The position numbers were made by a program, and so were the translations under genes. Shown here one piece after another: positions 37,951 to 64,000 of a stretch of DNA of 64,000 nt. The first letter of the stretch is position 1, and each line of letters opens with the position of its first letter. A model generated the notes under the pieces. The model was not told the DNA's origin and ran no database searches. It worked only from the letters and a program-made list of their open reading frames with translations. Origin of the DNA: an uncultured Bacilli bacterium (GTDB lineage Bacteria; Bacillota_I; Bacilli_A; RF39; UBA660); the NCBI GenBank assembly GCA_944331865.1, contig CALVIZ010000002.1, positions 12,227-76,226 on the forward strand, given 5' to 3'.

Positions 37951-37979
37951 TATTATCCCTCCCTATATAAATTTCATTT

Positions 37980-38164: not shown

Positions 38165-38310
38165 TATTATTGACTTATCAAAAAAATACCTAACATTATT
38201 TGAAATCTTCCGTTTCACAACAAACAAAAAATGAGCTAGCTTAGTATTTCCTAAATTTGCTCATTTTTGCTGTCAAATTCAATTTATAACATAAAAATAT
38301 AAAAGTCAAT
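38165..38310. repeat. ~140-bp direct repeat R1, copy 1. Contains a hairpin aaaatgagc...gctcatttt.
   Basis: About 90% identical to 42800-42935. Confidence 0.7.
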
Positions 38311-38327
38311 ATAGAAGTATATAATTA

Positions 38328-39014: not shown

Positions 39015-39028
39015 TATAATTTAAATTT

Positions 39029-39057
39029 ATATTATCAAAAATAAGTTATGATGTCAA
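39029..39057 (-). promoter_or_regulatory. Sigma-A promoter of paralog B: TTGACA-N17-TAATAT
   Basis: The minus strand reads ttgacatcataacttatttttgataatat. Confidence 0.5.
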
Positions 39058-39092
39058 CTAAGTCATATTATCTTACACAATTGTCAAAATTA

Positions 39093-40151: not shown

Positions 40152-40232
40152 AAGTATCTACTCCTCGTAAAATTACATTTATAATAATCACAAAACAAAA
40201 AATCAAATATTTTTTCATTAAAACTCAAGATT

Positions 40233-41132
40233 TTATTTCTTTCGCATTAATTTAAAATTAGCATCAATTAACCCAGTTTCATCATTACTATTTCTTGATT
40301 TTATTGTTCCTATATTTTCCATATTTATGTCATCAATTATCTTAGCATCTGTTAAAACACAAAGAGACAAATCATCAAAATAAACCGTTTGAAGATCTAT
40401 TTTAGCTCCTTTACTACCTGTAAAATCTGTTTCGTGTAAATATATTCCATCAAATGGGCCGATAAATTCTACTCCTGAGAATTTACATCTTCTTAAATTT
40501 CTCTTATAAACTGTTTGAGGTTCTATTCTAGCTCCTTTGCTTCCTGTAAAATCTGCTCCTTCTATTATCACTCTATCAAATGATTCAATAAATTCTACTC
40601 CTGAGAATTTACATTCACTTAAATTTCCCTTATAAACTGTTTGAGGATCTATTCTAGCTCCTTTGCTTCCTGTAAAATCTGCACCATTTATTTTCACTCC
40701 ATCAAATGGGCCGATAAATTCTACTCCTGAGAATTTACATTCACTTAAATTTTTATTGTAAATTGTTTGGGGATTTATTTTAGCTCCTTTGCTTCCTGTA
40801 AAATTTGTTTTAGATATATTTGCACCATCAAATGAGCCATCAAATAATACTCCCGATAATACACAAAAGTTAAAATCCTTGTCATAAACTGTTTGAGGAT
40901 CTATTTTTACTCCAATAAATCCAGTAAAATCAAAGCCACATATACATACATTATCAAAAGATACATTACTAAAATCAATCTTTCTCAATAATCTCTCAGG
41001 TATTGCAATTTCCTTATAAACTTTACCATCTTCTAAAACTTTTTCCTTAAATATAATATTTGGATTAGCCAAAGTTACATATTCATTATCTTTCAAACTA
41101 TCTAAAGCTTCTATTAGCTTTTCTAAATTCAT
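40233..41132 (-). CDS. 40-aa-repeat family protein, paralog D (299 aa, subfamily 2)
   Basis: Same architecture. C-terminal tail IDANFKLMRKK. Confidence 0.65.
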   Translation of the reverse strand: MNLEKLIEALDSLKDNEYVTLANPNIIFKEKVLEDGKVYKEIAIPERLLRKIDFSNVSFDNVCICGFDFTGFIGVKIDPQTVYDKDFNFCVLSGVLFDGSFDGANISKTNFTGSKGAKINPQTIYNKNLSECKFSGVEFIGPFDGVKINGADFTGSKGARIDPQTVYKGNLSECKFSGVEFIESFDRVIIEGADFTGSKGARIEPQTVYKRNLRRCKFSGVEFIGPFDGIYLHETDFTGSKGAKIDLQTVYFDDLSLCVLTDAKIIDDINMENIGTIKSRNSNDETGLIDANFKLMRKK

Positions 41133-41200
41133 ATTTTCAACTCCTCACAAAATTGCATTTATAATAATCACAAAAACAAAAATATCAAGTTTTTCATAAC

Positions 41201-43014: not shown

Positions 43015-44589
43015 ATGAAAAAAGTATTAATAAGAATAAAGGATAATAGTTTTATTGTAAAAGAAAAAATTAAATTGTCTAGTGAATATAAAAATATTTT
43101 AAATACTAATGTAATTAGTTGTAATGAACTAGTTTTTTCTAATGAATATATTGTAAATAACCCCAAAATTGTTAGTAATTTTATTCAAGAATTATCTAAA
43201 ACTTACAATATTGATACTTTAATAATTGAAAAAAATGACTTTACTTTGTTATTCTTGAATATTGTAAAAAATAATAAAAACATAACTTCTTTAATTTTAA
43301 AAGATGATACACCTTTAACTTTTAAAATGTGTGAAGCTATTATGCACTCTTATGTTAAGAATGTCAATTGTTATACTTTACAACCATTTATGATAGAATA
43401 CCTTGATAAATATAATATTATTGTTGAATCTAGAAATGAAATACTATATTTATCTAAATTTATGATTGATAATAATTTAAGTATTTTTTCATCTATGTTT
43501 TATAAAATGACTCTAAATATGGATTTACCCTTGAATGAACAAGATGAACAAGATTTTGAAGCTTTTTGTAAAATTAATAAATATTTAAAAAATATTAATG
43601 TTAATATTGTTAATAAAAATGATTTAGAATTTATTATTAAAACTTTAAGACAAAATAATAAAAAGAATATTAAAATTAATATTCATGAAAATATAAGTAA
43701 TGTAGAATTAATTGAATATTTAAAGAATTTTAATAAGAGGAAAAGTAAAAAATATAAAATATATTTTCGCTTAGTATATAGTAATGATTATTTAAAAGAT
43801 AATATTTTTAAACAAACTAATTTAAGTTTACTTAAAACATGTGGTTATTTAATTTTGTTAATTGTATTTTTTTCTTTTGGTTATGTCTTTTATGATAATT
43901 ATAAATCTATGCAAAGTGATAATAACATAAAAGAAAATATAACAAAAGTTATTGAAATAAATGATTCTGAAGATATTATTGCGGAACTTAATAAAGATAA
44001 GCAGGAAGATGAAAAATTAGTTGTTAATGAAGATATTGCTAGTTTAATAAATGTAAATCCAGAAGTAGTGGCATGGATTAAAGTTAATAATACTAATATT
44101 GATTATCCAATAACCCAAACAGATAATAATGAATTTTATTTAAAACATAATTTCTATTTAGAAAAGGATAATAATGGTTGGGTTTTTATGGATTATCGAA
44201 ATCATACTGATGATTTAAGTGATAATATCATTCTTTATGCTCATAATAGATATTATAGTGGTATTATGTTTGGTACATTACAAAATACTTTAAGATATAG
44301 TTGGTATACTAATCCCGAAAATCAAATTATTAGTTTAAGAACTCTATATGAAAATTTAGAATATCAAGTATTTTCCGTTTATAAAATTACAGTTACTACC
44401 GATTATATGCAAACTTTATTTGCAGATGATAATGATCGATTAAACTTTTATAATATGTTAAAAAATAGAAGTATTTATAATTTTAATGTTGAACTTAAAG
44501 GTAGTGATAAAATAATAACTTTATCAACTTGTGCTGAAGATAATAGTAGATATGTATTACATGCTGTTTTAAAAAACGATGATAAATAG
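43015..44589 (+). CDS. Class B sortase-like transpeptidase domain fused to a ~280-aa N-terminal cytoplasmic extension and one TM helix
   Basis: The C-terminal ~190 aa carry SrtB-family hallmarks: the catalytic His context IILYAHNR, the Cys motif TLSTC, a downstream Arg, and the VAWIKVNNTNIDYPITQTDNNEFYLKHNF segment typical of SrtB. A TM helix LLKTCGYLILLIVFFSFGYVFY is preceded by a K/R-rich stretch, giving N-in topology. RBS taggtgaagtt, then ATG. Confidence 0.7.
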   Translation: MKKVLIRIKDNSFIVKEKIKLSSEYKNILNTNVISCNELVFSNEYIVNNPKIVSNFIQELSKTYNIDTLIIEKNDFTLLFLNIVKNNKNITSLILKDDTPLTFKMCEAIMHSYVKNVNCYTLQPFMIEYLDKYNIIVESRNEILYLSKFMIDNNLSIFSSMFYKMTLNMDLPLNEQDEQDFEAFCKINKYLKNINVNIVNKNDLEFIIKTLRQNNKKNIKINIHENISNVELIEYLKNFNKRKSKKYKIYFRLVYSNDYLKDNIFKQTNLSLLKTCGYLILLIVFFSFGYVFYDNYKSMQSDNNIKENITKVIEINDSEDIIAELNKDKQEDEKLVVNEDIASLINVNPEVVAWIKVNNTNIDYPITQTDNNEFYLKHNFYLEKDNNGWVFMDYRNHTDDLSDNIILYAHNRYYSGIMFGTLQNTLRYSWYTNPENQIISLRTLYENLEYQVFSVYKITVTTDYMQTLFADDNDRLNFYNMLKNRSIYNFNVELKGSDKIITLSTCAEDNSRYVLHAVLKNDDK

Positions 44590-44606: not shown

Positions 44607-45805
44607 AATTGTAATTTCAACCGCACCATTTAATATAATTTTAACAAACAATAAAAATTTGTCAATTTTTTTCTTTTTTGTTTGATAATTTTTATAAATA
44701 TATATTATGGTTTTTTTGTCAATGACACGCAGTGTTTATTTTATCATTGACAAAAAAATCATAATATTATTACAATTTTAATCAAACAAAAATAATAATT
44801 AATATTCCATTTCTTTTTCATATGAGTTTTTAAATCCAAACATTTTTCTTGGCATTGAATTAATATTAAATGCTATGTCATCTAGATATATTTGTGGGGT
44901 TATTTTAAATGACATTCCTTTTGGTAAATATCTTCTTACTATTGCATTTGTTCTTTCATTTGTTCCTCTTTGAAACGAACAATATGGATCACATTTATAT
45001 AGTTTTACTCCTAGTCTTTTTGCTGCTATTCCCATTGCTCTAAATTCTAATCCATTATCTATTGTTATTGATTTTACTTTTATTTCATTTTTTATTATAT
45101 ATTTATATATTAGGTTTGCTGTATAATAATCATATCTATATTCTGACTTTATTAACCATACTCTCCTTGTACATCTATCAACTATTGATACTATTGATTG
45201 TTGTTCATCCTTTTTTCCTAGTATTGAATCTATTTCCAAATGCCCTGGCTCTCTTCTTTCTTCTATATATTTTGGTCTTAATCCTATTGGTAATATTGTT
45301 TTATTTTCTAGATTCCATATGAAATGTTCCATCATTCCACTTCTCTTTTTCTTTTTGTGCTTTTTATAACATAAATCTGTTCTTTTTAAATATATTTTTC
45401 CTTGTTCTATCCAATTATATACTTGTTTTACACTTACACTTTTTTCTCCTAAATACATTTTCTTAAATCGATATACACATACTTCTATTGAATGATCTTT
45501 TCTATCATAATGATCAAATAAATATTTTATAAATATTTCATATTTCTTATTTATATCTATTTTCCTTTTTTTATATATTCCCGCTTTATATCTTGATATT
45601 GTTGAATGACTTATACCTAATCTTCTTCCTACTTCTCTCATTGATAAATTTTGTTTTAACAAAATATCAATTTCTACTTTATTTTTTTCTGTTAATTGTT
45701 TATAATGCATATAAGAGCTCCTCCTTGCCGGGTTGTGGGCTCTTTTATTATACCAAAAAAAGCCGCACCTTGTGGTGCGGTTCAAATTTCAATTTAGGAA
45801 AAACG
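44607..45805 (-). mobile_element. IS30-family insertion sequence (~1.2 kb) with terminal inverted repeats and a ~32-bp flanking duplication
   Basis: IRL aattgtaatttcaaccgcacca at 44607-44628. IRR (reverse complement) aattgaaatttgaaccgcacca at 45784-45805, a 20/22 match. Flanking direct repeat aaaaacgatgataaatagttcatcgttttttt at ~44573-44604 and ~45810-45841. Confidence 0.75.
44799..45710 (-). CDS. IS30-family transposase (DDE)
   Basis: N-terminal HTH (LSMREVGRRLGISHSTISRY). DDE residues with the IS30 signature ...QRGTNERTNAIVRRYLPKG. The start was trimmed to the ATG at 45708-45710 (MHYKQL), which is preceded by AGGAGGAG. Confidence 0.85.
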   Translation of the reverse strand: MHYKQLTEKNKVEIDILLKQNLSMREVGRRLGISHSTISRYKAGIYKKRKIDINKKYEIFIKYLFDHYDRKDHSIEVCVYRFKKMYLGEKSVSVKQVYNWIEQGKIYLKRTDLCYKKHKKKKRSGMMEHFIWNLENKTILPIGLRPKYIEERREPGHLEIDSILGKKDEQQSIVSIVDRCTRRVWLIKSEYRYDYYTANLIYKYIIKNEIKVKSITIDNGLEFRAMGIAAKRLGVKLYKCDPYCSFQRGTNERTNAIVRRYLPKGMSFKITPQIYLDDIAFNINSMPRKMFGFKNSYEKEMEY

Positions 45806-45828: not shown

Positions 45829-46788
45829 TTATAAAAAAGGATTTATTCTTTGTAATTCTTCATTACTATTATACATATTCATTTCTTCAAATATTCCTTT
45901 AGTTAAATCAGCATTTTCATTATAAAAATCAATAAGTAATTGAGCCCCTAATTCTTTATCACATAGTATCTCTTCTATTAAGTTATCTATATCTTCACCT
46001 TGATCTATTAAATCTATTAATATTTCTGTGCTTTCTTTTTCTTTATCTTCACTTTCTTCATTAAAATCATTTTCAGAATAATAATCAGATTTATATAATA
46101 CATTTTTATAAATATTAAATAACATATATTGTATTAAAAAACGAATGTCTAAATTAAATTCTATTACCAGTTCTAAAAATTTTTCCCAAATAAATACATC
46201 CTCATTTTTGCCATATATATACCTACTTTGAGCTTGAGCCAGTTCATTTAGTTCTATTATTTTACTAATTATCCGTTCTTCATCCGATAAATCTTTAGCA
46301 TTATCTTCCATTGTAAATATTGAAAAAGGATTTATTTTTAATAATTTACTTATTTCTTTATTAGCAATTAAATATTCCCTTGCTTTGTAACTTACTAAAT
46401 AATTACCCTCATTAACCATTTCAACATAATATAAAATAATCATTTTATCAATTGGTTTTTTTATTTTTTCTTTTAAAGATAAAGATTCTATGTTTTCTTT
46501 AACTGAATCGCTATATGGCATTGGTATATTTATTGCTTTAAAATAATTAATAAACAAATAAGCCATTTCATATACATATAATTTTAATATAACGATAATG
46601 TTTTCTTTTGTTAAGTTGTATTTATCTATGTATTGGGCAAAATCATTTTCAAAATTAGTAGACTTGCCTTGTAAATAATTTGTTATTTCATCTACTATAG
46701 TTTCACTATTATATAAAACATTAGTATTAGCATTAAATTTTTGAATAATTTCTATAATAATATTTTCTTTTAGCTCAATTTCCCCCAT
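45829..46788 (-). CDS. Hypothetical cytoplasmic protein (319 aa, acidic)
   Basis: ORF between the two IS30 copies. No motif. Confidence 0.45.
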   Translation of the reverse strand: MGEIELKENIIIEIIQKFNANTNVLYNSETIVDEITNYLQGKSTNFENDFAQYIDKYNLTKENIIVILKLYVYEMAYLFINYFKAINIPMPYSDSVKENIESLSLKEKIKKPIDKMIILYYVEMVNEGNYLVSYKAREYLIANKEISKLLKINPFSIFTMEDNAKDLSDEERIISKIIELNELAQAQSRYIYGKNEDVFIWEKFLELVIEFNLDIRFLIQYMLFNIYKNVLYKSDYYSENDFNEESEDKEKESTEILIDLIDQGEDIDNLIEEILCDKELGAQLLIDFYNENADLTKGIFEEMNMYNSNEELQRINPFL

Positions 46789-46795
46789 AAAAACC

Positions 46796-47590
46796 TCAAT
46801 TTACTACAGTTGAACTATAATAATAAAAACTGTCAGTTTCTTTATCATATTTAAAACTATGTTCATATGTTACTAGATTATTTATATAATCGTTTATATT
46901 AAAATTAGAACTATAAACTATTGCAGTATTTAAATCTTTTCTATCTTCATCATTATAACATTGCTTCGTTTCTAAATCACACTTTAAATAATAATCATAT
47001 ATTTTTATTACGTTATTATTTTCCGTTAATGCATATCTGATTATTTCTTTATATTCAATATAATTGTTACTTATATTTTCATTTGTGTCATATATATAGT
47101 AATATTCATTGTTATATTTTGCTTTAATGTTTTTATTATAATCAAAATCTGTTGATATAAATTTTATATCTGGACCTAATATAGTTTTGGCAGCTTCTTT
47201 AAATTTACTTAAACTGACTTTATATAATGGAGTATAATTATTAGTATTATTTAATACTTCAGATAATTCTTCTTTAGTTAGTACTTCTAAACTAAAATTA
47301 TCATATTTTAGTATGTATTGATAAATCATTGCTTGGATATATCTTGTATTTTGATTAGCTAAATTTGTATTAATTACATAATGAATTGAATGCACTCCAT
47401 CATATTCTAAAGCATTATCATTTAATAAATATGAATAAAGTTCTTTTACTGTACTTTCACCTATTTCATCAATGTTTGTATTTGTTTCTTTATTATTTTT
47501 TTCAAAATTAAATAATTTATAAAAACCAAAGCATGATCCAAGTACTAATAAAACAACACCGATTATTATTGCTATTTTTTTTGCATTCAT
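46796..47590 (-). CDS. Hypothetical membrane-anchored or secreted protein (264 aa)
   Basis: N-terminal signal-anchor MNAKKIAIIIGVVLLVLGSCFGFY. Confidence 0.45.
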   Translation of the reverse strand: MNAKKIAIIIGVVLLVLGSCFGFYKLFNFEKNNKETNTNIDEIGESTVKELYSYLLNDNALEYDGVHSIHYVINTNLANQNTRYIQAMIYQYILKYDNFSLEVLTKEELSEVLNNTNNYTPLYKVSLSKFKEAAKTILGPDIKFISTDFDYNKNIKAKYNNEYYYIYDTNENISNNYIEYKEIIRYALTENNNVIKIYDYYLKCDLETKQCYNDEDRKDLNTAIVYSSNFNINDYINNLVTYEHSFKYDKETDSFYYYSSTVVN

Positions 47591-47663
47591 TATTCATTCA
47601 CCTTAATAAAATTTTAGCATTTTTTTTTATTCTTGACAATAAAAAATCAAGATTTCTCTTGAT

Positions 47664-48980
47664 TTAATCAACTATATTTATACATGTATAATTCTTTTGA
47701 TCATAGTAATTTTTTAGTCCACTATATGTTCTATCAAATACTCCACCTGCTTCTGTATCTAATGTACTGGCACTTAAATCAGTGGCAATTTTTAATGTAT
47801 AATTTTCATCATCATATTCTGCTAGACCACTTATATTATTAAATGTTATTGTTTCTGGCTTACCATTAGTTATTTGAATATAATCATCATTATTACTAAA
47901 TTTATATGTATATATTCTTTGTGATATTTCTAAATATCCTAAACCATTTTCTGTTGCCCCTAAAACTAAATTATCTGTAGTTGTCATTGATCCAGAATAT
48001 CCTTCAATTTCACTATCTAATGATGTGCATGATCTAATTGCTGTGATGTCACTTGGAGATACATATAATATTGCGTTTACTTCTTTGCTATTATTTTCAT
48101 CATCTGAAAGTGTTATACCTACATTATATGGACCACCCGCTGTTGATAAATAACTATTTACAGTCTCTTTATTACTAAATGCATATTTACAATTTGATGG
48201 ATCTGTACATGATACTATAAAGTCATCAACTGAAATTGTAGTTGTATTTATTACTTTATATACCGTTTTTAATTGCGCTGTTGGTGCTGTTTTGTCTACT
48301 ACGTGTATTGTTCCTGTATAAGTATCTTCACCACAAGTTATAGTAAAATTATAATCTCCTAAAGCATTAGTATTTACATTATTAATATTTTTTTCACAAG
48401 TTGCTGCTCCCCCACCAGTAATTGTTGCATAATCACTTATATCATCAGATAATGTTTCCCCTAATCCTAAGGTTACATCTTTTATTTGAACATTTACTTT
48501 ATTATTCGCCATATTTAAATAATAATATACCCCAAATGCTACAGCTCCGATTAGTATTACTATTATTATTGTAAATAATACTTTATTCATTGGCCTTTTT
48601 GGTTTTTCTTGTTTTGGTGGTACTGCCCCTATATCTTCAACTTTTGTTGGTTCAACAAAACCATTATTATTTATATTGCCTAATGATATTCCTCCTGGGT
48701 CTTGACCTATAGAACTTCCCATATTATTTGGCATATTATTGTTTTCAGTTCCAGGAATTGGTGTTGCTACTGGATTGTTTTGTGGATTATTTGGCATGCT
48801 TATAGTATCTGAAACAGTATTTGTTACTGGTGTGCTGTTTAAATTAGTATTAACTGAATTAGTTACTGGTTCACCAACTGGTTGAGTTTGAATTGTTGGC
48901 TCTGGATTTTGACTTACTGGTTGTTCATTTAAATTATTACTTTGATTTTGTCCTAAATTATTAAAATTTTGCTCATTCAT
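47664..48980 (-). CDS. Hypothetical bitopic protein (438 aa). Q/N/P-rich N-terminus, one TM, extracellular C-terminal domain.
   Basis: Low-complexity N-terminus (NLGQNQSNNLNEQPVSQNPEP...). TM helix VLFTIIIVILIGAVAFGVYYYL. Confidence 0.45.
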   Translation of the reverse strand: MNEQNFNNLGQNQSNNLNEQPVSQNPEPTIQTQPVGEPVTNSVNTNLNSTPVTNTVSDTISMPNNPQNNPVATPIPGTENNNMPNNMGSSIGQDPGGISLGNINNNGFVEPTKVEDIGAVPPKQEKPKRPMNKVLFTIIIVILIGAVAFGVYYYLNMANNKVNVQIKDVTLGLGETLSDDISDYATITGGGAATCEKNINNVNTNALGDYNFTITCGEDTYTGTIHVVDKTAPTAQLKTVYKVINTTTISVDDFIVSCTDPSNCKYAFSNKETVNSYLSTAGGPYNVGITLSDDENNSKEVNAILYVSPSDITAIRSCTSLDSEIEGYSGSMTTTDNLVLGATENGLGYLEISQRIYTYKFSNNDDYIQITNGKPETITFNNISGLAEYDDENYTLKIATDLSASTLDTEAGGVFDRTYSGLKNYYDQKNYTCINIVD

Positions 48981-49178: not shown

Positions 49179-50372
49179 ATGGCAACTGTATCAAATTATA
49201 ATAAACATACAAAACTATCAGAAAGAATTAAAATTGAAAATGGTCTTAATAATGGGTTATCTTTCAGAAGTATAAGTAAAGATATTAATAAAAGTGTTAC
49301 TACAATATCTCGTGAAGTCTTTAATCGTAGATATAAAGAAAAAGGTAATTACTTTAATGGCTTTCCTGGTAAATGTTCTAAATTAGATAAGGCTCCATTT
49401 GTTTGTAATTCTTGTCCTAATTCAAAAAAATGTAGAATGACAAAGTTTTATTATAGTGCTGCTCACGCTGAAGAAGATTATAAGAAATTATTAGTTGAGT
49501 CTAGAACTGGAATTGATCAAACTACTGAAGAATTTAAAAATCTTAATAAAATTGTAAAAACAGATATTGATAAAGGGCATTCTTTTTCTCTAATTATAAA
49601 TAATCATCCAGAACTAAATATAACTGAAAGAACACTTTATAATTATCAAGAAAAAGGTTACTTATCTACTAAAAATATAGATTTACCAAGAAAAGTTAGA
49701 TATAAAAAAAGAAAAAGAAATTGTATAACTTCTAGTAAAAAAGAAAACCATTGTAGAATTAATCGTACTTATAATGATTTTCTTATATATATAAAAGAAA
49801 ACAATATCACTTATTATACACAAATGGATACTGTTGAAGGCATAATTGGAACTGGGCAGCCATGTTTATTAACTTTGTATTTAAAACATGCCCAACTCCT
49901 ACTTATATTTAAAATTTCAGAACAAACCATTACCTGTGTTAACAACAAAATTAAAGAAATAAAATCACTTATAGGTAATGAAATGTTTCATGAAATTTTC
50001 CCTATTATTTTAACAGACAATGGCTCTGAATTCAAGCGACCAGAAGAAATAGAGGATAATGGTATCCATGTAATTAATTCTAAAGTTTTTTATTGTGACC
50101 CTCAAAGAAGTAATCAAAAATCTCAAATTGAATTATCACATGAATATATAAGAAAATATATACCAAAAGGTATTTCATTAAATAACTATACAGATAATAA
50201 TATATTAGATATGATGAATAACATTAACTCAACTCCAAGAAAATCACTTGATTTTAAATCACCTTATGACATAGCTAAAAATATGTTTGGTGAAGAGGTA
50301 TTAAACAAATTGGGAATCGTTAAAATTGATAGCAAAAACGTAATATTAAATGATAGTCTATTTAATAAATAA
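49179..50372 (+). CDS. IS30-family transposase, second distinct copy
   Basis: N-terminal HTH (LSFRSISKDINKSVTTISREV). C-terminal IS30 signature ...QRSNQKSQIELSHEYIRKYIPKG. RBS AAAGGAGG. IS ends not determined. Confidence 0.8.
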   Translation: MATVSNYNKHTKLSERIKIENGLNNGLSFRSISKDINKSVTTISREVFNRRYKEKGNYFNGFPGKCSKLDKAPFVCNSCPNSKKCRMTKFYYSAAHAEEDYKKLLVESRTGIDQTTEEFKNLNKIVKTDIDKGHSFSLIINNHPELNITERTLYNYQEKGYLSTKNIDLPRKVRYKKRKRNCITSSKKENHCRINRTYNDFLIYIKENNITYYTQMDTVEGIIGTGQPCLLTLYLKHAQLLLIFKISEQTITCVNNKIKEIKSLIGNEMFHEIFPIILTDNGSEFKRPEEIEDNGIHVINSKVFYCDPQRSNQKSQIELSHEYIRKYIPKGISLNNYTDNNILDMMNNINSTPRKSLDFKSPYDIAKNMFGEEVLNKLGIVKIDSKNVILNDSLFNK

Positions 50373-55745: not shown

Positions 55746-58700
55746 CTACTCTCCTTCATCCATGGTATCTATTTCATCAATACCTGGGAATTCTAAATCA
55801 TCTAAATCTTCTTCTTCATCTTCAATAGTTTCTTCTTCAAAGTCACTATTTTCTATGACTGGTTCTTCTACTACTTCTTCATTAGAATTAACTTCTATTT
55901 CATCTATTCTAAAGACGTCTGATTCATCTTCATCTTCTTCTATTTCTTTAAATTCAACTATTTTATCATCTTGATCAACTATTTGAACATCTAGTGCTAA
56001 GGCTTGGAACTCTTTAACTAAAACACGGAAACTTTCTGGTACTCCAGCTTGGTCAACTACTTTGCCTTTAACAAGAGATTCATATACTTTAACACGACCT
56101 ACAATATCATCAGCTTTTACGGTAAGTATTTCTTGTAATACATGACTTGCTCCATATGCATAAAGTGCCCAAACTTCCATTTCTCCAAATCTTTGACCAC
56201 CAAATTGTGCTTTTCCTCCTAAAGGTTGTTGAGTAACTAGTGAATATGGTCCTGTTGCTCTAGCATGAAGTTTGTCATCAACCATATGGTGGAGTTTAAC
56301 CATGTACATTACACCAACATTGATACGATGATCAAATAATTCGCCAGTACGACCATCACGAAGTTCTACTTTTCCATCTTCAGCCATTCCTGCTGCTTTC
56401 ATTTCTGCTAGTATGTCTTCCCATGTTGCTCCATCAAATACTGGAGTCGCATAGTGAACACCTAACTTTTTACCAGCCATTCCTAAATGTACTTCTAAAA
56501 TTTGACCTATGTTCATACGTGATGGAACACCTAATGGATTTAGCATTATATCTACTGGACGTCCATCTGGTAAATATGGCATATCTTCTTCTGGTAAAAT
56601 TAATGATATTACCCCTTTGTTACCATGACGACCTGACATTTTGTCACCAACTTGGATTTTTCTTTTTTGAATTATATATACTCTTATAACTTTAGATACT
56701 CCTGCTCCTAGTTCATCTGAGTTTTCTTTTGTGTAAACTTTAACATCGTGTACTATTCCCCCAGCTCCATGTTCAACACGTAGGGATGTATCTCTTACTT
56801 CTCTAGTCTTTTCACCAAAAATTGCATGTAACAATTTTTCTTCACTAGTTAGTTCTTGTACCCCTTTTGGAGTTACTTTACCAACTAAAATGTCGCCTTC
56901 TTTAACTTCAGTTCCAATTCTTACTATACCATCAGAATCTAAATTCTTACGAGCATCTTCTCCAACGTTTGGTATATCTCTAGTTATTTCTTCTGGTCCT
57001 AGTTTTGTATCTCGGCATTCAATATCATAGTGTGATATGTGTAAAGATGTGTATACATCATCTTTTACTAATCTTTCATTTAATATAACGGCATCTTCAT
57101 AGTTATAACCATTAAAAGTCATAAATGCTACAGTCATATTTTTTCCTAAAGCAAGTTCGCCTTTGTCTGTTGATGGACCATCTGCTAAAACTTGACCAAC
57201 ATGAACTTTATCTCCAGCTTTAACAAGTGGATGATGGTTTACACAACTTGAAGCATTACTACGTTCAAAATTAGCTAAATAATAAGTATCAGAGCCTTTA
57301 GCTACTTTAACTACTATTTTTAAACCATCAGCATATTCTACAACACCATCGGCTTTACATACTATTGTTGAACCAGAATCACGAGCTGCAGTATATTCAA
57401 CACCAGTTCCAACTATTGGTGCTTCAGTTTCAAGTAATGGTACTGCTTGACGTTGCATGTTGGCACCCATTAATGTTCTGTTAGCATCATCATATTCCAA
57501 GAATGGAATACAACTAGTTGTTATAGCAACAACTTGTGATGGGGCAACATCCATGAAATTAACATGAAGTTTATCAATATATACTGTATCCCCATTAATT
57601 CTTGCTATTACTTCATCTTCTACTATTTCATTTTCTTCATTTATTTTGGTTGTCGCTTGGGAAATGTAATAATCTTTTTCTTCATCGGCTGTCATATAAA
57701 TAACTTCATCTGTTACTTTACCATTAATAACTTTTTTGTATGGTGTCATTATAAAACCATATTCATTAATTTTAGCATATCCAGCAAGTGATGTTATTAA
57801 ACCAATGTTTTGACCTTCTGGTGATTCAATCGGACAAATACGTCCATAGTGTGATGCATTAACATCACGTACATCCATTCCTGCACGATCTCTTGATAAT
57901 CCTCCAGGTCCTAAACTTGATAATCTTCTTTTGTCTGTAAGTTCTGCAATTGGGTTAATTTGATCCATAAATTTAGATAATTGAGATGAACCAAAGAATT
58001 CTTTTAATGCTGCTGTTACGGGACGAATATTAATTAATGTCTTTGGTGTTATTGATTCTAATTCTTGAGTAGTCATTCTTTCACGAATAACTCTTTCCAT
58101 TCTAGCCATACCTATTCTAAATTGATTTTGAATTAGTTCTCCAACTTGACGAACACGTCTATTTCCTAAGTTATCTATTTCATCATCACTACCTATATTA
58201 CTATGTAATCCTATATAGTAATTAAGCGATGCATATACATCAGGTATTGTTAGTCTTCTTACATCTACTGATTGATCTGTTCCGATAATTGTAATAGTCT
58301 TCTTATTATCTAATGGATCTATTACTTTTACTGTTTGAATTTTATTATAATCATCTAATTCTTCATTTATTTTTACTTCTTTAACATTTAACCCATTTGC
58401 AAATAAAGGGCGTATTTTTTCTAATATTTCTTTGGTTATTAAAGTATTGCTTTTTACAACTTCATTGCTACCATCTATTATTGGTTCTGCTAAAGTTAAT
58501 CCTACTAAACGATCTAATACATTTAATTTTTTGTTAAATTTATATCTTCCTACTTTTGCTAAATCATAACGAAATCTATCAAAAAATCTAGTTATTAATT
58601 GATTCTTTGATGAATCTAAAGTTGCAGGTTCTCCAGGTCTTAATTTTTCATATATTTCAATTAATGCTTCATCGGTATTACTTGTACTATCTTTTTCTAA

Positions 58701-59360
58701 TGTATTTAATATATATTGATTATCACCAAATACTTCAATTATTTCTTCATCAGATGATAAACCTAATGCTCTTAATAATGTTGTTACTGTTACTTTCCTT
58801 GTTCTATCTATTCTTACATATAATACATCTCTAGCATCAGTTTCATATTCTAACCATGTTCCTTTATTAGGTATTAATTCACCACTAATTATATGACGTC
58901 CATTTTTGTCTATTTCTCTTTTGAAATATACACTTGGACTTCTAACTAATTGCGATACAATTACTCTTTCTGCTCCATTAATTATAAATGTTCCCGCATC
59001 AGTCATTAATGGCATATCACCTAAGAATATAGTTTGTTCTTTTACTTCACCTGTTTCATGCACATAAAGACGTGCTTCAACTTTAAGTGGTGCTGCATAG
59101 TTTACCATTCTTTCTTTTGCTTCTTTAATTGAATATCTTGGTTCATCAAAATAATAATCACCAAATTCTAGTGAAATATTACCAGTAAAACTTTCAACTG
59201 GGAATAAATCTTCAAAAATTTCTTTTATTCCCTCATTTAAGAATTGTTGATAGCTTTTCTTTTGAATTTCCAATAAATCTTTCAATTCTAAAACGTTTTT
59301 CGTTCTCGAAAAACTTCTTCTTTCACGATAGTCACCAAATTTTTTTACTTTATAAGCCAC
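55746..59360 (-). CDS. rpoB: DNA-directed RNA polymerase subunit beta
   Basis: Conserved RpoB regions including [13 protein letters not shown]. 1204 aa with an acidic C-terminal tail. Confidence 0.97.
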
Positions 59361-60156: not shown

Positions 60157-60657
60157 TTATTTACAACTTACTAATGGATAATTTAATTTGTAATTATTAT
60201 CTTCAATTAATTCTATTTCATTGTTGTTTGCATTAAGATACTTTTTCCCATTAGCTTCTATAATTTTACTGTTTTCAGTATTATATGTTATTATATTACA
60301 TTGGGGATTACAAATAAATAATTTTTCATTGTTTTTATCATCATATACCATTTGAAAATAGCCATCTTCAAAAAAAGGATTCACATAAGTCTCTTTTAGT
60401 AGTTTTAAATATGTTTCTACATCATCTCCGATGTATTCTTTACATACTATTCCATTATTATCTTCATACGAGTTTGCTGTGTTCAAATTTGTACTGTTAA
60501 ATATTTTATTTATTTTATTAATATTATTTAATAATTGTTCTAATTCATTATTTTTATTAGAGTTATTGTCATCATAATTATAAATTAATATACCTAATCC
60601 TAATCCAATAATTAATATAAATATGACTATTATTATATTTTTTTTCATTTTAAACAA
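60157..60657 (-). CDS. Small membrane-anchored extracytoplasmic protein (166 aa)
   Basis: N-terminal signal-anchor MFKMKKNIIIVIFILIIGLGLGILIY. Start overlaps the pilin-like gene. Confidence 0.5.
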   Translation of the reverse strand: MFKMKKNIIIVIFILIIGLGLGILIYNYDDNNSNKNNELEQLLNNINKINKIFNSTNLNTANSYEDNNGIVCKEYIGDDVETYLKLLKETYVNPFFEDGYFQMVYDDKNNEKLFICNPQCNIITYNTENSKIIEANGKKYLNANNNEIELIEDNNYKLNYPLVSCK

Positions 60658-62717
60658 CTTCCTTTTCCATTCCAGGTATACCCCGGTTTACAACAGTAAC
60701 AAAAATATTTATAATTTGTACATGATCCATATTGTGAAGGATTATAACATTCTCCTCCTGAATATCCTTCTGCACCACATGATCCACTATTAGAACAAAC
60801 CTGTTGAGGATCATATGTACTTGGACCACTTGATCCACCTGTATCACCGCCGCCAATATTACCACCACCTGTGCTTCCACCTGAATAATAACAACTTGTG
60901 CTGTCTTGGTATGAATATCTAAATCCCCCATAATAGTAATAACATGTTCTATATTTGTAACCTGGAGATTCACAAGGTCCCCAGCTATAATCACATGTTG
61001 AACTTGATTCACATGCTATTGTTGTTGTCCTTGTTTCTGTTCTTCCTAAACATTCATTATATCGACTTTGAATTTCATAGCCATAACTACTACAACCACT
61101 ATATCTGTATGTCCCTTCATTACAACATGCCGCAGATGTAACATTTCCTAGACTTCTAATTGTATAGTTGCCTAAACTATCTACAGCTTTAGCAAAGGCA
61201 TAATAAGTTGTGCCACAACTATAACTAAAAGTTTTACTCGTAGATGTAAAGGCAGATGATGAAGGTGTACTACTAGTGGTTTTTACTAAATAATATACAG
61301 TAATTGGTGGATTTTTATCTGTAAATGTCGCTGTAGTAATACTACCTAAACTTACTTTTCCTCCACTGACATATACTGGTCCTTCTTTATCTATATTATC
61401 AACTGTTATTTTTTCACATTTTACTTCAATAGCATTTTGAGCACAGAAATAGTATACACCGTTTTTATCTACTTCTTTTGTTTTAGTTACTTCAGTTAAA
61501 GCTGGATTTAATGTATTCCAACCACTTGCAGTGGTATCTGTTTGTGCATTATCAAAAAATCCAACCTTTAATATTCCTGAACCAGTGTCTTTGGCATTTC
61601 CTGTTAATGTGACATTGTTTTTAGTTGGGGCTGTAGGATAAGCACTTAAACTAATGCTATCAATACCATCATCTATTTTTTCAATTACTACTTTGGTATT
61701 GTCATTCATTTCTGATACATTACCTACTTTATCTATTGCTACTACTTGATATGTTCCTTCATTTTTTATTCCCGTAAATTCTATTTTGGTTTTTCCATCT
61801 ACTTCTTTATATGCTCCCGTTGTTGTACAACTTTTTAGAGTTTCTATACATGTTTCTAATTCTTCATTACATATTTTATATTCGTTTATACATTCTTCTA
61901 AATCCGTACTTAAATTTACATATATTCCTTTTAATCCTGATCCGTTTCCATCTGTTGCTTCTATACTTATACTTTTTTCTTTGCTCCATTCACTACTATT
62001 TGGTACTTCTATTCTTTCTATTATTGGTGATTCTTTATCTATATTTATTGTTGCACTTGCTTCTGCTTTTATTAATTGGTCTTCTTCTTTCCAATTTATT
62101 GTTAAGGTATATGGTATTTTACTTGCTACTCCTACTACTGCTTCTGTTGTTATCTTGGCTGTTGTTTTAGTTGTTCCTAAATTACTTTTCCATTCATATT
62201 CTTTTTCTCTATCTTCTAATACTTCATTATTTTGTAATCCCGCTAATGTTACATTATCTTTATACCATTTACTATTATCTGCTATTTCATAATTTATCCC
62301 ATCCGTTGATACTCCTATTAATAAATTGCTTTCTTTTTCATATTCTTTACATTTTCCATCTTCACTTCGATTACTTTCTTCTATATCTAATACCGATTTA
62401 TATTTCCCATCTTCATATGTACTTCTTACTAGATAACAATTTAAACTTTCATTTGTTACTGGATTGTATATATCTGTTTCATCATCTGGTTCTACATATC
62501 CAGCTAGTATTAAATCTTCAACACTTACTACAGTTATATTTGTATCATTGGCATAATTTTTTGCTTGAGTTTCAATATATGATATTGTATTTGCTAATTC
62601 TTGGTTTAACACATTTTCTTTAACTCTATTATATATAACTAGTGATAAACTTATTAATACTGCTAGTATTGCTATTGTTGCTAATAACTCTACTAATGTA
62701 AATCCTTTCTTTTTCAT
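60645..62717 (-). CDS. Large type IV pilin-like protein (690 aa) with a class III prepilin signal and a Cys/Tyr/Gly-rich C-terminal region
   Basis: N-terminus MKKKG|FTLVELLATIAILAVLISL, with Gly at -1 and Glu at +5 relative to the prepilin peptidase cleavage site. The C-terminal ~170 aa contain more than 20 Cys and many Tyr and Gly. Confidence 0.7.
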   Translation of the reverse strand: MKKKGFTLVELLATIAILAVLISLSLVIYNRVKENVLNQELANTISYIETQAKNYANDTNITVVSVEDLILAGYVEPDDETDIYNPVTNESLNCYLVRSTYEDGKYKSVLDIEESNRSEDGKCKEYEKESNLLIGVSTDGINYEIADNSKWYKDNVTLAGLQNNEVLEDREKEYEWKSNLGTTKTTAKITTEAVVGVASKIPYTLTINWKEEDQLIKAEASATINIDKESPIIERIEVPNSSEWSKEKSISIEATDGNGSGLKGIYVNLSTDLEECINEYKICNEELETCIETLKSCTTTGAYKEVDGKTKIEFTGIKNEGTYQVVAIDKVGNVSEMNDNTKVVIEKIDDGIDSISLSAYPTAPTKNNVTLTGNAKDTGSGILKVGFFDNAQTDTTASGWNTLNPALTEVTKTKEVDKNGVYYFCAQNAIEVKCEKITVDNIDKEGPVYVSGGKVSLGSITTATFTDKNPPITVYYLVKTTSSTPSSSAFTSTSKTFSYSCGTTYYAFAKAVDSLGNYTIRSLGNVTSAACCNEGTYRYSGCSSYGYEIQSRYNECLGRTETRTTTIACESSSTCDYSWGPCESPGYKYRTCYYYYGGFRYSYQDSTSCYYSGGSTGGGNIGGGDTGGSSGPSTYDPQQVCSNSGSCGAEGYSGGECYNPSQYGSCTNYKYFCYCCKPGYTWNGKGSCLK

Positions 62718-62783
62718 AAAATCATCCTATCTTTAATTAAATTATAACTAATATTATTTTATTTGTAAATAAAAAGCAGAAAA

Positions 62784-63326
62784 TTACTCTGCTTCTATAC
62801 AATAATAATTATTGCCTCCTAGTTTCCAACTTTCATTTTCATAATACATTTGACTTTTTGTTTCATCAAAATATATATCTTTTTTTAAGTCATCTCCTTC
62901 TAATGTAATATTACTTAAATCGTATTTTACTATATTTTTACAAGGATTATCTGTTTTATTAACATATAATGTCCCATCTATTTCTATATAATTATTTTTA
63001 TTTGTTTCTTCGGTTAAAGCAACTTGAATTGAAGATATAAAACTATTATTAAGCATATCATTAAATTCTTTTATTGATTTAATGTTTGTATCAGTAACTT
63101 TATAATAAATAGTATCTTCTATTAATATATTTTCTTCACTAGTTTTTATATCACCATATGTATAATAGTAATAATAATAATTATTTTCTAGTAATTCTTT
63201 AGCTGTTACCGTTAAATCTTCTTTTGGTTTTTCTTCTTTATTTATTAATTTCATTGCTAAAACTACTGCAATAATAATTAAAATTAATACAAATATAATT
63301 ATTAAAATCATTTTTTTATTTTTCAT
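62784..63326 (-). CDS. Membrane-anchored extracytoplasmic protein (180 aa)
   Basis: N-terminal signal-anchor MKNKKMILIIIFVLILIIIAVVLAM. Confidence 0.5.
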   Translation of the reverse strand: MKNKKMILIIIFVLILIIIAVVLAMKLINKEEKPKEDLTVTAKELLENNYYYYYYTYGDIKTSEENILIEDTIYYKVTDTNIKSIKEFNDMLNNSFISSIQVALTEETNKNNYIEIDGTLYVNKTDNPCKNIVKYDLSNITLEGDDLKKDIYFDETKSQMYYENESWKLGGNNYYCIEAE

Positions 63327-63341
63327 ACTATCTCCCTAATT

Positions 63342-64000
63342 TTAAACAGCATAATAATAAATTGTTACATAATATTCATAATATGTATAATCTACATATG
63401 TTTGATACTGACATGTATTATAATTAATCAATGTTCCCCTACTACACGTATGACAAATGCTACCACTTAAATAATCACCACTATTACAATAATAATTTAT
63501 CCCTGTTGAAGAACAAGTTGCTGGATAGTCCCCTTGCCAATAACATGTGGCAGAGCAATTTCTTGTATAAGTTTGTCCACTTGAACAACTGCCACTTGGC
63601 TTAGCATCACAATAATAGCTTTTTGTAAAATGTTCTTTGCAGTCTTGATCAGTTTCATAATAACCTTCCCAATATCCATTGTTACATCTCCATAAAGCAT
63701 ATCCTGAAAAATTATAATTATTATCAGTACACATTGTTCCTCTTAAATTTCCGCCATTACTACAATAATAATTTCTACAATACTCATTTTGATGCGCATA
63801 ATAACTTTGAGAAGATTCTGTAAGTGTAGTAAGTCTTTGGCTTGTATATTTAGTTCCATTTTTGGCTGTTATATATGCTCCATTCCCAGATAAATATCCA
63901 TTAACTGAACCATTACCTTTAGTTATGACTGCATGATCATATTCAATTATTCCATTTATGGGAACATATTGTGTAATATCACTATCATTATAAATTGTTT
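63342..64000 (-). CDS. Cys/Tyr-rich protein, 5' end beyond the window. Compositionally similar to the pilin-like C-terminus.
   Basis: The reading frame is open from 64000 through the Met listed in the ORF track (translation ...TIYNDSDITQYVPINGIIEYDH...CRNYYCSNGGNLRGTMCTDNNY...). At least 219 aa are visible, with many Cys and Tyr. Confidence 0.55.
   Translation of the reverse strand, partial: TIYNDSDITQYVPINGIIEYDHAVITKGNGSVNGYLSGNGAYITAKNGTKYTSQRLTTLTESSQSYYAHQNEYCRNYYCSNGGNLRGTMCTDNNYNFSGYALWRCNNGYWEGYYETDQDCKEHFTKSYYCDAKPSGSCSSGQTYTRNCSATCYWQGDYPATCSSTGINYYCNSGDYLSGSICHTCSRGTLINYNTCQYQTYVDYTYYEYYVTIYYYAV

What the first reader, a model, noticed from the sequence alone, without database searches (positions are those of the whole stretch)
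60157..64000. Giant type IV pilin-like protein with a Cys/Tyr/Gly-rich C-terminus, and a neighbouring Cys/Tyr-rich protein
The 690-aa protein starts with a textbook prepilin signal (KKKG|FTLVELL, Glu+5) but is 4-5 times longer than a major pilin. Its last ~170 aa are extraordinarily rich in Cys, Tyr, Gly, Ser and Thr (for example CYYYYGGFRYSYQDSTSCYY and GGSTGGGNIGGGDTGG). The next gene upstream encodes a further Cys/Tyr-rich protein that runs off the window, and two small signal-anchored proteins flank the pilin gene. No pilus assembly genes (PilB/C/M/N/O, prepilin peptidase) are in the window. This may be a minor-pilin/tip-adhesin cluster or a pseudopilin-anchored surface protein.
Basis: seen in the sequence. 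Interest (0 to 1): 0.6.

Follow-up and report, generated by a model that had tools for sequence, protein, structure and literature searches.

The report
Tandem giant modular pilins with partners
An uncultured, very AT-rich gut bacterium carries two side-by-side genes for unusually large type IV pilin-like proteins: a conserved pilin foot, a stalk of four immunoglobulin-like domains, and interchangeable cysteine-rich tips, each tip paired with its own small membrane-anchored partner. This is most likely a variable, pilus-displayed adhesin set, and no function has been shown.

Summary
Window 60645-62717(-) encodes a 690-aa protein with a class III (prepilin) signal, MKKKG|FTLVELL. Its last 170 aa are 65% Cys/Tyr/Gly/Ser/Thr, against 23% in other window proteins. 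Metagenome contigs carrying the same locus show that the truncated upstream gene is a second pilin-like paralogue of 783 aa. Nucleotides 2-865 of its coding sequence are identical to those of the 690-aa gene; beyond that the tip is different.

AlphaFold2 (mean pLDDT 82) predicts a long pilin helix, a small beta-sheet, four Ig-like domains, Cys-rich hairpins, a disordered Gly/Ser linker and a terminal Cys knot. Each gene is followed by a small N-terminally anchored protein whose type tracks the tip type in 10 of 10 pairs across five species. One of these partners is translationally coupled to its pilin gene through an ATGA overlap.

No pilus machinery lies in the window or in the 10 kb upstream of the array. 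Related uncultured Bacilli MAGs carry a stand-alone PilB-type ATPase among housekeeping genes.

Best reading (0.55): modular minor or tip pilins that present recombination-shuffled adhesive heads. The family is unnamed and rare. I class it as a new variant of the known "modular pilin" kind, with moderate interest.

The parts
62703..62717 (-). Leader peptide MKKKG of the 690-aa protein (class III signal, predicted cleavage after Gly5)
   Evidence: PF07963 and TIGR02532 above cut-off. G5, F6 and E10 are invariant in 66 homologues.
62541..62702 (-). Long N-terminal alpha-1 helix (aa 6-59) with Phe+1, Glu+5 and a hydrophobic first half
   Evidence: AF2 helix 8-59. Sequence match to solved pilin N-termini (Geopilin domain 1 protein, E 4e-4).
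62334..62540 (-). Small beta-sheet part of the pilin module (aa 60-128), with invariant Cys94 and Cys123 and the nearly invariant EPDDETDIYNP stretch
   Evidence: AF2 strands 95-137. Conservation in alignments A1 and A2. 67-77% identity between species among the closer orthologue pairs.
61137..62333 (-). Stalk of four Ig/FN3-like beta-sandwich domains (aa about 129-227, 232-345, 354-440, 448-527), bounded by (N/K)ID-x3-P motifs
   Evidence: AF2 pLDDT mostly 85-97. Foldseek finds strings of Ig/FN3 domains (gp130, titin, SiiE, GhpA) at E down to 5e-10. Relatives hit DUF7743 and Big domains.
61827..61910 (-). Helical hairpin inserted in the second Ig-like domain (aa 270-297), with four Cys at heptad spacing (C276, C283, C290, C297)
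   Evidence: AF2 helices 270-281 and 287-295. The insertion is present only in this protein and its closest relatives. The 864-nt identity with the paralogue ends inside it.
60882..61136 (-). Cys-rich core of head type A (aa 528-612): unit CCxEGTYxYxxCSxxGYExxSRYNEC followed by unit CxxWGxCxSxGxKYRTCYYYYGG
   Evidence: AF2 beta-hairpins at pLDDT about 80. Only 36 representative proteins among 1.84 billion carry the module, nearly all of them prepilin-like. Repeat alignment A6.
60798..60881 (-). Disordered Gly/Ser-rich linker (aa 613-640)
   Evidence: pLDDT below 50 for 613-673. Replaced by acidic or Gly-rich linkers in orthologues.
60648..60797 (-). C-terminal Cys knot (aa 641-690, 8 Cys) ending YFCYCCKPGYTWNGKGSCLK
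   Evidence: The motif Y-x-C-x-C-C...W-x-G-x-G-x-C is conserved at the C-terminus of head A relatives. It is not confidently modelled.
60157..60648 (-). Partner A: 163-aa protein (166 aa from the upstream TTG) with an N-terminal membrane anchor and an extracytoplasmic domain of about 130 aa with 4 Cys. Its ATG overlaps the pilin stop codon as ATGA.
   Evidence: Sequence. Follows head A in three species. Same family as partner B (alignment A4).
62784..63326 (-). Partner B: 180-aa anchored protein that follows the 783-aa paralogue
   Evidence: AF2 pLDDT 88.5: transmembrane helix 2-28, then an alpha+beta domain. Follows head B in four species. Only 10 homologues found among 5.8 billion clusters.
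63342..64000 (-). Last 219 codons of the 783-aa paralogous giant pilin (head type B, 14 Cys, ends YTYYEYYVTIYYYAV). The rest lies beyond the window.
   Evidence: Full gene recovered on contigs with the same locus (L001:7025-9376). PF07963 above cut-off.
62741..62769 (-). Promoter-like TTTACA-17-TATAAT in the 66-nt gap before the 690-aa gene
   Evidence: L001 9949-9977. Such matches are not enriched over shuffles in this AT-rich DNA, so this is only a pointer.

Best explanation
The locus encodes two tandem modular type IV pilins with their cognate partners.

**Anatomy (shown or modelled).** Each large protein has a class III signal peptide, a conserved pilin module (long alpha-1 helix plus a small sheet with a conserved Cys pair), a rigid stalk of four Ig-like domains, and a variable disulfide-rich head. 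Head A is on the 690-aa protein and head B on the 783-aa protein.

**Mechanism (inferred).**
1. A prepilin peptidase cleaves after Gly5.
2. A PilB/PilC-type machinery encoded elsewhere in the genome incorporates the pilin module into a type IV filament. The subunit is probably at the tip or at low abundance, because it carries roughly 60 kDa of extra mass.
3. The stalk holds the head roughly 15 nm away from the filament (my estimate from four Ig-like domains) so that it can bind a ligand, which could be a host or mucus glycan or protein, or another microbe.

**Partner.** The small membrane-anchored protein encoded right after each pilin gene is made together with it. It is proposed to bind its cognate head outside the cytoplasm, as a folding or holding factor or as a docking partner.

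**Variation.** Homologous recombination in the identical 5' half keeps the foot uniform and allows head-plus-partner cassettes to be exchanged or multiplied.
For: - **Signal and module.** The class III signal is above the curated cut-offs, and G-1, F+1 and E+5 are invariant in 66 homologues. The AF2 model shows helix 8-59, then a sheet, then four beta-sandwich domains (mean pLDDT 82). Foldseek returns only Ig/FN3 strings.
- **Constraint on the foot.** The pilin module is 74% identical between two species, the same as the adjacent rRNA methyltransferase (73%). Stalk, head and partner are 31-43% identical. This argues for a constraint beyond simple membrane anchoring.
- **Heads look adhesive.** Heads of relatives match adhesion-type modules: TSP1 repeats above cut-off, VWA, Ephrin_rec_like, TNFR and HYR. 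65 of 72 Cys-rich ectodomains have an even Cys count. One relative has a membrane-anchored CxxC thioredoxin-like gene next to the array.
- **Head-partner pairing.** The pairing is 10 of 10 in five species, and the partner start overlaps the pilin stop as ATGA.
- **Recombination.** Exact 864-nt identity between the paralogues, with sharp break points, is repeated in three other genomes at lower identity.
- **Machinery in relatives.** A PilB-type ATPase (PF00437, E 3e-124) with scattered pilin genes is found in relatives of similar G+C. More than 8000 close homologues were found; the few that carry names come from 'Bacilli bacterium' MAGs.
- **Precedent.** Modular pilins are documented (PMC8179133).
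Against: - No prepilin peptidase, PilB, PilC or PilM/N/O lies in the 64-kb window or in the 10 kb upstream of the array.
- No prepilin-peptidase motif was seen in any of about 90 fetched loci of relatives.
- No ligand, filament or processing has been shown.
- The window protein itself matches no known adhesion domain. Its similarity to TSP1 repeats is inconclusive (hhalign probability 19%).
- The partner has no counterpart in characterised type IV pilus systems, and a more distant clade has the pilin pair without partners.
Confidence: 0.55

Rival explanations
1. Pilin-like anchor only. The class III signal and hydrophobic helix serve as a membrane anchor or secretion signal. The protein stands on the cell surface as a single stalked adhesin and is never polymerised into a filament, as with prepilin-signal solute-binding proteins of archaea or orphan pseudopilins.
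For: No assembly genes lie near the locus in this species or in any of the species where the array is syntenic. Relatives hold many scattered prepilin-like genes of 120-1470 aa away from any ATPase. The extracellular extension is large.
Against: The globular part of the pilin module (aa 60-128), not only the hydrophobic helix, is the best conserved part of the protein and matches housekeeping-gene conservation. Glu+5 is invariant. Relatives do encode a highly conserved PilB-type ATPase with scattered pilin genes.
Confidence: 0.2
2. Effector-immunity or key-lock cassettes. The conserved N-terminal two-thirds is a delivery vehicle. The variable Cys-rich head is either a contact-dependent effector, with the downstream anchored protein as its immunity factor, or a 'key', with the partner as the cognate receptor on sibling cells for kin-specific adhesion.
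For: The layout matches polymorphic toxin loci. There is a conserved N-terminal part, a sharp switch to variable C-termini, a co-varying small gene directly downstream (10 of 10), translational coupling, tandem alternative copies and recombination tracts. The only structural match of partner B is to a chain of the CwlO-IseA (peptidoglycan endopeptidase-inhibitor) complex (E 1.6e-3, TM 0.37-0.41).
Against: No head matches any toxin family in Pfam, NCBIfam or PADLOC. Heads of relatives match adhesion-type repeats. A clade with B-like heads has no partner genes at all, which a toxin could not tolerate. The IseA-complex match is weak, and I did not verify which chain it is.
Confidence: 0.12
3. Spore-surface component. 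Cys/Tyr-rich proteins encoded beside spoIVA are cross-linked into the coat or into spore appendages.
For: spoIVA lies two genes upstream of the array in at least four species. Cys- and Tyr-rich composition is typical of coat and exosporium proteins (general knowledge).
Against: The proteins carry an export and anchoring signal of the pilin type, which does not fit assembly in the mother-cell cytoplasm. The array keeps its position next to the methyltransferase-rpoB genes in a clade where spoIVA is not adjacent. No coat-protein family matched.
Confidence: 0.03

Closest known systems
Modular minor pilins PilB (vWA module) and PilC (lectin module) of Streptococcus sanguinis type IV pili (Raynaud et al. 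2021, PMC8179133; PMC9934059)
   Same: Both are from monoderm bacteria. Both have a class III signal, a small pilin module and bulky grafted modules for ligand binding. Some homologues of the window protein carry a VWA module in the same position.
   Different: Here a four-domain Ig-like stalk separates the pilin module from the head. The heads are new Cys-rich modules with no database family. The genes are tandem paralogues with identical 5' halves. Each has a dedicated non-pilin partner gene, and they are not in a pil operon.
Type IVb minor pilins CofB (ETEC) and TcpB (Vibrio cholerae) with their secreted partners CofJ and TcpF
   Same: A large tip pilin with extra beta-rich domains (as summarised in PMC8179133). 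It binds a specific non-pilin protein that is exported (this part is from my own knowledge).
   Different: There is no sequence or detected fold relation. The partners here keep an N-terminal hydrophobic anchor, are encoded directly after each pilin gene, and co-vary with the head type. Binding has not been shown.
Polymorphic toxin-immunity loci (CdiA-CT/CdiI, Rhs, LXG)
   Same: A conserved N-terminal region, variable C-terminal cassettes, a cognate small gene downstream, tandem alternatives and recombination at the conserved part.
   Different: There is no recognisable toxin domain. The heads resemble adhesive Cys-rich repeats. The N-terminal vehicle is a type IV pilin. One clade lacks the small gene.
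Neisseria pilE/pilS antigenic variation by gene conversion
   Same: Pilin genes are diversified by recombination between copies that share conserved 5' sequence.
   Different: Both copies here are complete and carry their own start codon and ribosome-binding site. The converted or homogenised part is the conserved 5' half, and no silent cassettes were seen.
Competence pilins ComGC/ComGD
   Same: The N-terminal 60-80 residues align (NCBIfam E 6e-7 and 2.5e-5).
   Different: Scores are far below the curated cut-offs (29.5 against 75; 24.7 against 70), and the proteins are five to seven times longer.

Membership tests
Type IV pilin / class III signal peptide proteins (PF07963, TIGR02532) | Short basic leader ending in Gly, then Phe+1, Glu+5 and about 20 hydrophobic residues | tested here: met
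   MKKKG|FTLVELLATIAILAVLISLSLVIY. PF07963 28.2 bits (cut-off 21.2) and TIGR02532 27.6 bits (cut-off 16.3). Invariant in 66 homologues.
Type IV pilin / class III signal peptide proteins (PF07963, TIGR02532) | Extended alpha-1 helix packed on an antiparallel beta-sheet, often with a C-terminal disulfide | tested here: met
   The AF2 model has helix 8-59 and strands 95-137. Cys94 and Cys123 are invariant. This rests on a model only, not a solved structure.
Type IV pilin / class III signal peptide proteins (PF07963, TIGR02532) | Cleavage and N-methylation by a prepilin peptidase | not testable with these tools
   No peptidase motif in the window or in the fetched loci. The rest of the genome could not be reached.
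Type IV pilin / class III signal peptide proteins (PF07963, TIGR02532) | Polymerisation by a PilB/PilC-type machinery | not testable with these tools
   No machinery within about 73 kb around the locus. Related MAGs have a T2SSE ATPase (E 3e-124) apart from most of their pilin genes.
Modular pilins (sensu Raynaud et al. 2021) | A pilin module followed by one or more domains not specific to pilus biology | tested here: met
   Four Ig/FN3-like domains plus Cys-rich head modules. Relatives carry TSP1, VWA, HYR and Ephrin_rec_like modules.
Modular pilins (sensu Raynaud et al. 2021) | The extra module has a direct role in a filament-mediated function | not testable with these tools
   Needs experiments.
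Thrombospondin type 1 repeat (PF00090 and related) | Match to the TSP1 profile (WxxW...CSxTCGxG...R.R.C) | tested here: not met
   The window protein has no TSP1 hit at E up to 1. Six relatives do, immediately upstream of the units shared with the window protein.
Thrombospondin type 1 repeat (PF00090 and related) | Profile-profile similarity of the CxxWGxC...KYRTC unit to the relatives' TSP1 repeats | tested here: inconclusive
   hhalign probability 19%, E 0.0012 over 19 columns. The profile has no PDB match.
Polymorphic toxin-immunity systems | Variable C-terminal domain with a recognisable toxin fold or family | tested here: not met
   No toxin family in Pfam, NCBIfam, PHROGs or PADLOC.
Polymorphic toxin-immunity systems | A cognate small gene directly downstream of every variable C-terminus | tested here: inconclusive
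   10 of 10 head-partner matches in five species, but two B-like pilins in locus L100 have no partner.
Competence pilins ComGC/ComGD (NF040999, NF040982) | Score above the equivalog cut-off | tested here: not met
   29.5 against 75 bits and 24.7 against 70 bits.

The most novel reading that the evidence does not exclude
The head and its co-varying, membrane-anchored partner form a specific key-lock pair, and the pilus delivers the key. In one version, a pilus tip on one cell binds the partner exposed on a sibling cell, and the recombination-shuffled cassettes then define recognition types (kin-specific adhesion). In the other version, the head is a contact-dependent effector and the partner neutralises it. 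Either version would be a polymorphic recognition or effector system carried on a type IV pilin, which has not been described.
Probability: 0.12. Interest if true: 0.8.

Novelty: new variant of a known kind. Interest (0 to 1): 0.5.

Why it matters
Modular pilins are thought to explain how simple type IV filaments acquire many functions, but only a few have been studied. This family shows a more elaborate design than those studied so far. It has a conserved foot, an Ig-like spacer, swappable eukaryote-like Cys-rich heads and a dedicated partner for each head. It occurs in uncultured, small-genome gut Bacilli of chickens, rabbits, ruminants and humans, which have few other recognisable surface structures.

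If the heads are adhesins, they are candidates for host or mucus attachment in organisms that cannot yet be grown. If the head-partner pairs turn out to be recognition or effector-immunity pairs, the locus would add a new delivery route to polymorphic systems. The arrangement also gives a clear case of concerted evolution, with exact 5' identity, that can be followed in population metagenomes.

Tried and rejected
- **Domain searches.** Pfam and NCBIfam on the 690-aa protein, and Pfam on the 783-aa protein, found only the N-terminal methylation motif. The two partners (Pfam, NCBIfam) and the 341-aa upstream protein (Pfam) gave nothing.
- **Phage or defence origin.** PHROGs hit only pilin-like N-termini of unknown function. 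PADLOC gave nothing for four of the five proteins and only a weak Cas6b hit (E 8e-4) for partner B, which I take to be chance. Rejected.
- **Partner as PilN/PilO-like.** I considered this from the order of secondary-structure elements. No PilN, PilO or GspM chain appeared among the 50 Foldseek matches listed. Dropped.
- **Head units as degenerate TSP1 repeats.** Only hhalign probability 19%. Kept as a lead.
- **PDB profile search with the Cys-rich unit.** No meaningful hit.
- **Finding this organism's own PilB.** A relative's ATPase used as query gave more than 8000 close homologues with no way to assign one to this genome. One look-up landed in another species.
- **Promoter and terminator scan.** Not above shuffles in this AT-rich DNA.
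- **The 341-aa membrane protein upstream of the array.** It is syntenic in four species (the window species, L007, L010, L011) but was not detected in L012 and is not encoded in L100. It was therefore not counted as part of the system.
- **Literature.** Searches for pilins with thrombospondin repeats and for Candidatus Onthocola biology gave nothing relevant.

Full report
**1. Check of the observation**

The minus strand of the window between 60157 and 64000 holds four open reading frames:
- a 166-aa frame at 60157-60657;
- a 690-aa frame at 60645-62717;
- a 180-aa frame at 62784-63326;
- a frame at 63342-63998 that is still open at the window edge.

The 690-aa protein begins MKKKGFTLVELLATIAILAVLISLSLVIY. 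It passes the curated cut-offs of PF07963 and TIGR02532. This is the only such motif in the six-frame translation of the window.

Its last 170 residues are 10% Cys, 14% Tyr, 17% Gly, 15% Ser and 9% Thr. The same residues are 1.1, 5.0, 5.8, 5.7 and 5.1% in 44 other proteins of the window. The truncated upstream protein has a similar composition.

**2. What lies beyond the window**

The exact 690-aa protein is on record on at least 15 metagenome contigs, from assemblies labelled ONAT22-1 and BRZ. Read in the direction of the genes, the order is:

SNF2 helicase, two unknown genes, a small HTH-like gene, beta-lactamase(-), an HTH protein, a 271-aa protein, spoIVA, hup, a 341-aa membrane protein, a 783-aa protein, the 180-aa protein, the 690-aa protein, the 163/166-aa protein, an RsmC-like methyltransferase, rpoB, rpoC.

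The 783-aa protein is the gene cut by the window edge, and it too starts (V/M)KKKGFTLVELL. Nucleotides 2-865 of the two coding sequences are identical without a single difference. The DNA upstream of the two start codons is unrelated, and identity falls to about 40% further downstream. Six independent short-read assemblies bridge both copies. Long-read contigs of a sister species show three copies with the same pattern. The duplication is therefore not an assembly artefact.

**3. The family**

A search of 5.8 billion protein clusters found 108 relatives of 400-1100 aa. Only three carry a source name, and that name is just the generic prepilin-domain label. Nearly all have the G|FTL(V/T)E motif. 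G-1, F+1, E+5, Cys94, Cys123 and a stretch EPDDETDIYNP...NC are invariant or nearly so.

The C-terminal 200 residues fall into discrete types with 14, 18 or 25 Cys:
- head A, as on the window's 690-aa protein, ends CCxxGxxWxGxGxC;
- head B, as on the 783-aa protein, ends YxYWxYxVTIxYY;
- head C consists of GxNTCxGGY repeats.

The head A module is rare. It occurs in 36 representatives among 1.84 billion proteins, almost all of them prepilin-like.

The genomes that carry the family are uncultured, low-G+C gut MAGs. They are labelled Bacilli, 'Tenericutes', Candidatus Onthocola and similar, and come from chicken, rabbit, ruminant and human samples. The window is 26% G+C and encodes sporulation genes (spoIVA upstream, yqfD in the window).

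**4. Structure**

AlphaFold2 with a 66-sequence alignment gave mean pLDDT 82. The model has these parts:
- a helix from residue 8 to 59;
- a small sheet up to about residue 128;
- four beta-sandwich domains up to residue 527, the second of which has a helical hairpin insertion with four Cys at heptad spacing;
- Cys-rich hairpins at 528-612 (pLDDT about 80);
- a disordered Gly/Ser segment;
- a poorly modelled terminal Cys knot.

Foldseek against the PDB returned only strings of Ig/FN3 domains such as gp130, titin, SiiE and GhpA. The first 137 residues match solved pilin N-termini by sequence.

The protein is thus a pilin foot, a stalk (which I estimate at about 15 nm from its four Ig-like domains) and a head.

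**5. What the heads resemble**

The window protein matches no domain family beyond the N-terminus. Relatives that share its Cys-rich units carry bona fide TSP1 repeats directly upstream of those units, above the Pfam cut-offs. Others carry Ephrin-receptor-like, TNFR-like, NCD3G, HYR, VWA or ALK/LTK glycine-rich modules. These are binding modules, not enzymes.

The unit CxxWGxCxSxGxKYRTCYYYYGG looks like a degenerate TSP1 repeat, but the profile comparison is inconclusive (probability 19%).

65 of 72 Cys-rich ectodomains have an even number of Cys. In a distant clade, a membrane-anchored thioredoxin-like protein with a CKWC motif is encoded just upstream of the pilin pair. Both observations point to extracytoplasmic disulfides.

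**6. The partners**

Each giant pilin gene is followed by a small gene whose product has an N-terminal hydrophobic anchor preceded by Lys residues. The partner type tracks the head type:
- head A is followed by partner A in three species;
- head B is followed by partner B in four species (five pairs);
- head C is followed by an unrelated 234-240-aa partner in two species.

That is ten pairs with no exception. Partners A and B align end to end and share a central and a C-terminal Cys. Their family has only ten further members in the database.

Partner A's ATG overlaps the pilin stop codon as ATGA, with a ribosome-binding site inside the pilin gene. Overlapping stop and start coordinates recur at other pairs in relatives.

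The AF2 model of partner B is confident (pLDDT 88.5). It has a transmembrane helix followed by an alpha+beta domain. Its only PDB match is a weak one to a chain of the CwlO-IseA complex (E 1.6e-3, TM about 0.4).

A more distant clade has two B-like pilins with no partner genes.

**7. Evolutionary pattern**

Between species, the pilin module is 67-77% identical among the closer orthologue pairs, falling to 51-53% for the most distant species (L012). Between the window species and L007 it is 74%, equal to the adjacent housekeeping methyltransferase at 73%. Stalk, head and partner are 31-59% identical.

Within a genome, the 5' parts of the paralogues are far more alike than orthologues are between genomes, and the break points are sharp:
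- 100% over 864 nt in this species;
- 97-100% over 1.7 kb in L007;
- 90-98% over about 500 nt in L010.

This is the signature of gene conversion or recent cassette exchange. The array occupies the same chromosomal site, just upstream of the methyltransferase-rpoB genes, in all of these species and even in the partner-less clade.

**8. Assembly machinery**

The window has no T2SSE-type Walker A motif and no prepilin-peptidase motif. Most of its other large ORFs were annotated and are housekeeping, sporulation, arginine deiminase pathway, transposase, sortase, pentapeptide-repeat and ABC-exporter genes. The 10 kb upstream of the array also lack pilus genes.

In related MAGs of similar G+C, a PilB-type ATPase (PF00437, E 3e-124) stands alone. 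It is divergent from a small pilin gene and lies between proS/pheST and a penicillin-binding-protein gene, and other pilin genes are scattered among housekeeping genes. This ATPase has more than 8000 close homologues; the few that carry source names are from 'Bacilli bacterium' MAGs.

Absence of machinery next to the locus is therefore the rule in this lineage and does not show absence from the genome.

**9. Interpretation**

The best-supported reading is that these are modular type IV pilins in the sense of Raynaud et al. (PMC8179133). They would be incorporated as minor or tip subunits and would present variable disulfide-rich heads on an Ig-like stalk, with head-specific partners that bind the head outside the cell.

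- **Shown:** the signal, the family, the predicted architecture, the pairing and the recombination pattern.
- **Inferred:** processing, polymerisation, adhesion and head-partner binding.

The rivals are an unpolymerised pilin-anchored surface protein (0.2), an effector-immunity or key-lock cassette system (0.12) and a spore-surface role (0.03). The partner-less clade and the adhesion-type modules argue against a toxin. The strict pairing and translational coupling keep the key-lock idea alive.

**10. Verdict**

The finding is real. It is best filed as a new variant of the known modular-pilin kind, in an unnamed and rare family. Interest is moderate (0.5). It is not a new principle, but three features have not been described for type IV pilins: the stalk-and-swappable-head design, the cognate partners, and the exact 5' identity between paralogues.

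Noticed in passing
L001:7026-7889 and L001:10002-10865 (the second copy is window 61853-62716, minus strand): An exact 864-nt direct repeat formed by the 5' parts of the two pilin paralogues. Several short-read assemblies break inside it (L093 and L094 start within the pilin genes).
   Followed up: yes
window 36418-42718 (-): Five tandem genes for pentapeptide-repeat proteins (228-510 aa). Another strain's contig (L091) lacks this block, so it looks like a strain-variable insert.
   Followed up: partly
window 44799-45785 (-) and 49179-50372 (+); L093:4906-6399: IS30-like transposase genes (HTH_38; an rve integrase core was also seen in the first) lie in the window. Other strains carry an IS66-family transposase inserted between partner A and the rRNA methyltransferase gene.
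   Followed up: no
window 43015-44589 (+) and 45829-48980 (-): An unusually long sortase (524 aa) lies beside three proteins with no family match (319, 264 and 438 aa). No LPXTG-like motif was seen in their C-termini.
   Followed up: partly
window 11628-13682 (-): An ABC exporter with an N-terminal C39 peptidase domain, the type that exports bacteriocins or peptide signals. Its neighbouring small ORFs were not examined.
   Followed up: no
P0120 (aa 506-554), P0125, P0076, P0077 (relatives, not in the window): Bacterial prepilin-like proteins that carry thrombospondin type 1 repeats above the Pfam cut-offs. Other relatives carry Ephrin-receptor-like, TNFR, NCD3G, HYR or ALK/LTK glycine-rich modules. 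This is a set of eukaryote-like adhesion modules on pilins of uncultured gut Bacilli.
   Followed up: partly
L100:5379-12343: In a more distant clade, two giant pilins without partner genes sit at the same site upstream of the methyltransferase-rpoB genes. They are preceded by a membrane-anchored PedC-like thioredoxin-fold protein (CKWC motif) and a transglutaminase-core protein.
   Followed up: partly
L046:8367-9875 (-), L035:1163-2629 (-), L096:10001-11587: The PilB-type ATPase of related MAGs is a solitary gene, divergent from a small pilin gene, between proS/pheST and a penicillin-binding-protein gene. No PilC-like or PilD-like gene was recognised beside it in the loci examined, so the type IV pilus genes in this lineage appear scattered through the genome.
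   Followed up: partly
window 35716-36309 (-): A 197-aa protein with 4.6% Cys, an N-terminal signal-like segment and a C-terminal hydrophobic anchor followed by KKNKK. It has no family match.
   Followed up: no
window 55746-59360 (-): RpoB carries an acidic C-terminal tail rich in Glu and Asp (its last roughly 90 residues), beyond the conserved domains.
   Followed up: no
L001:5988-7013 (just beyond the window end): A 341-aa protein with N-terminal transmembrane segments and no family match is encoded directly upstream of the first giant pilin in four species (62-64% identity). It was not detected at the head A locus of L012 and is not encoded in L100. It is unclear whether it belongs to the system.
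   Followed up: partly
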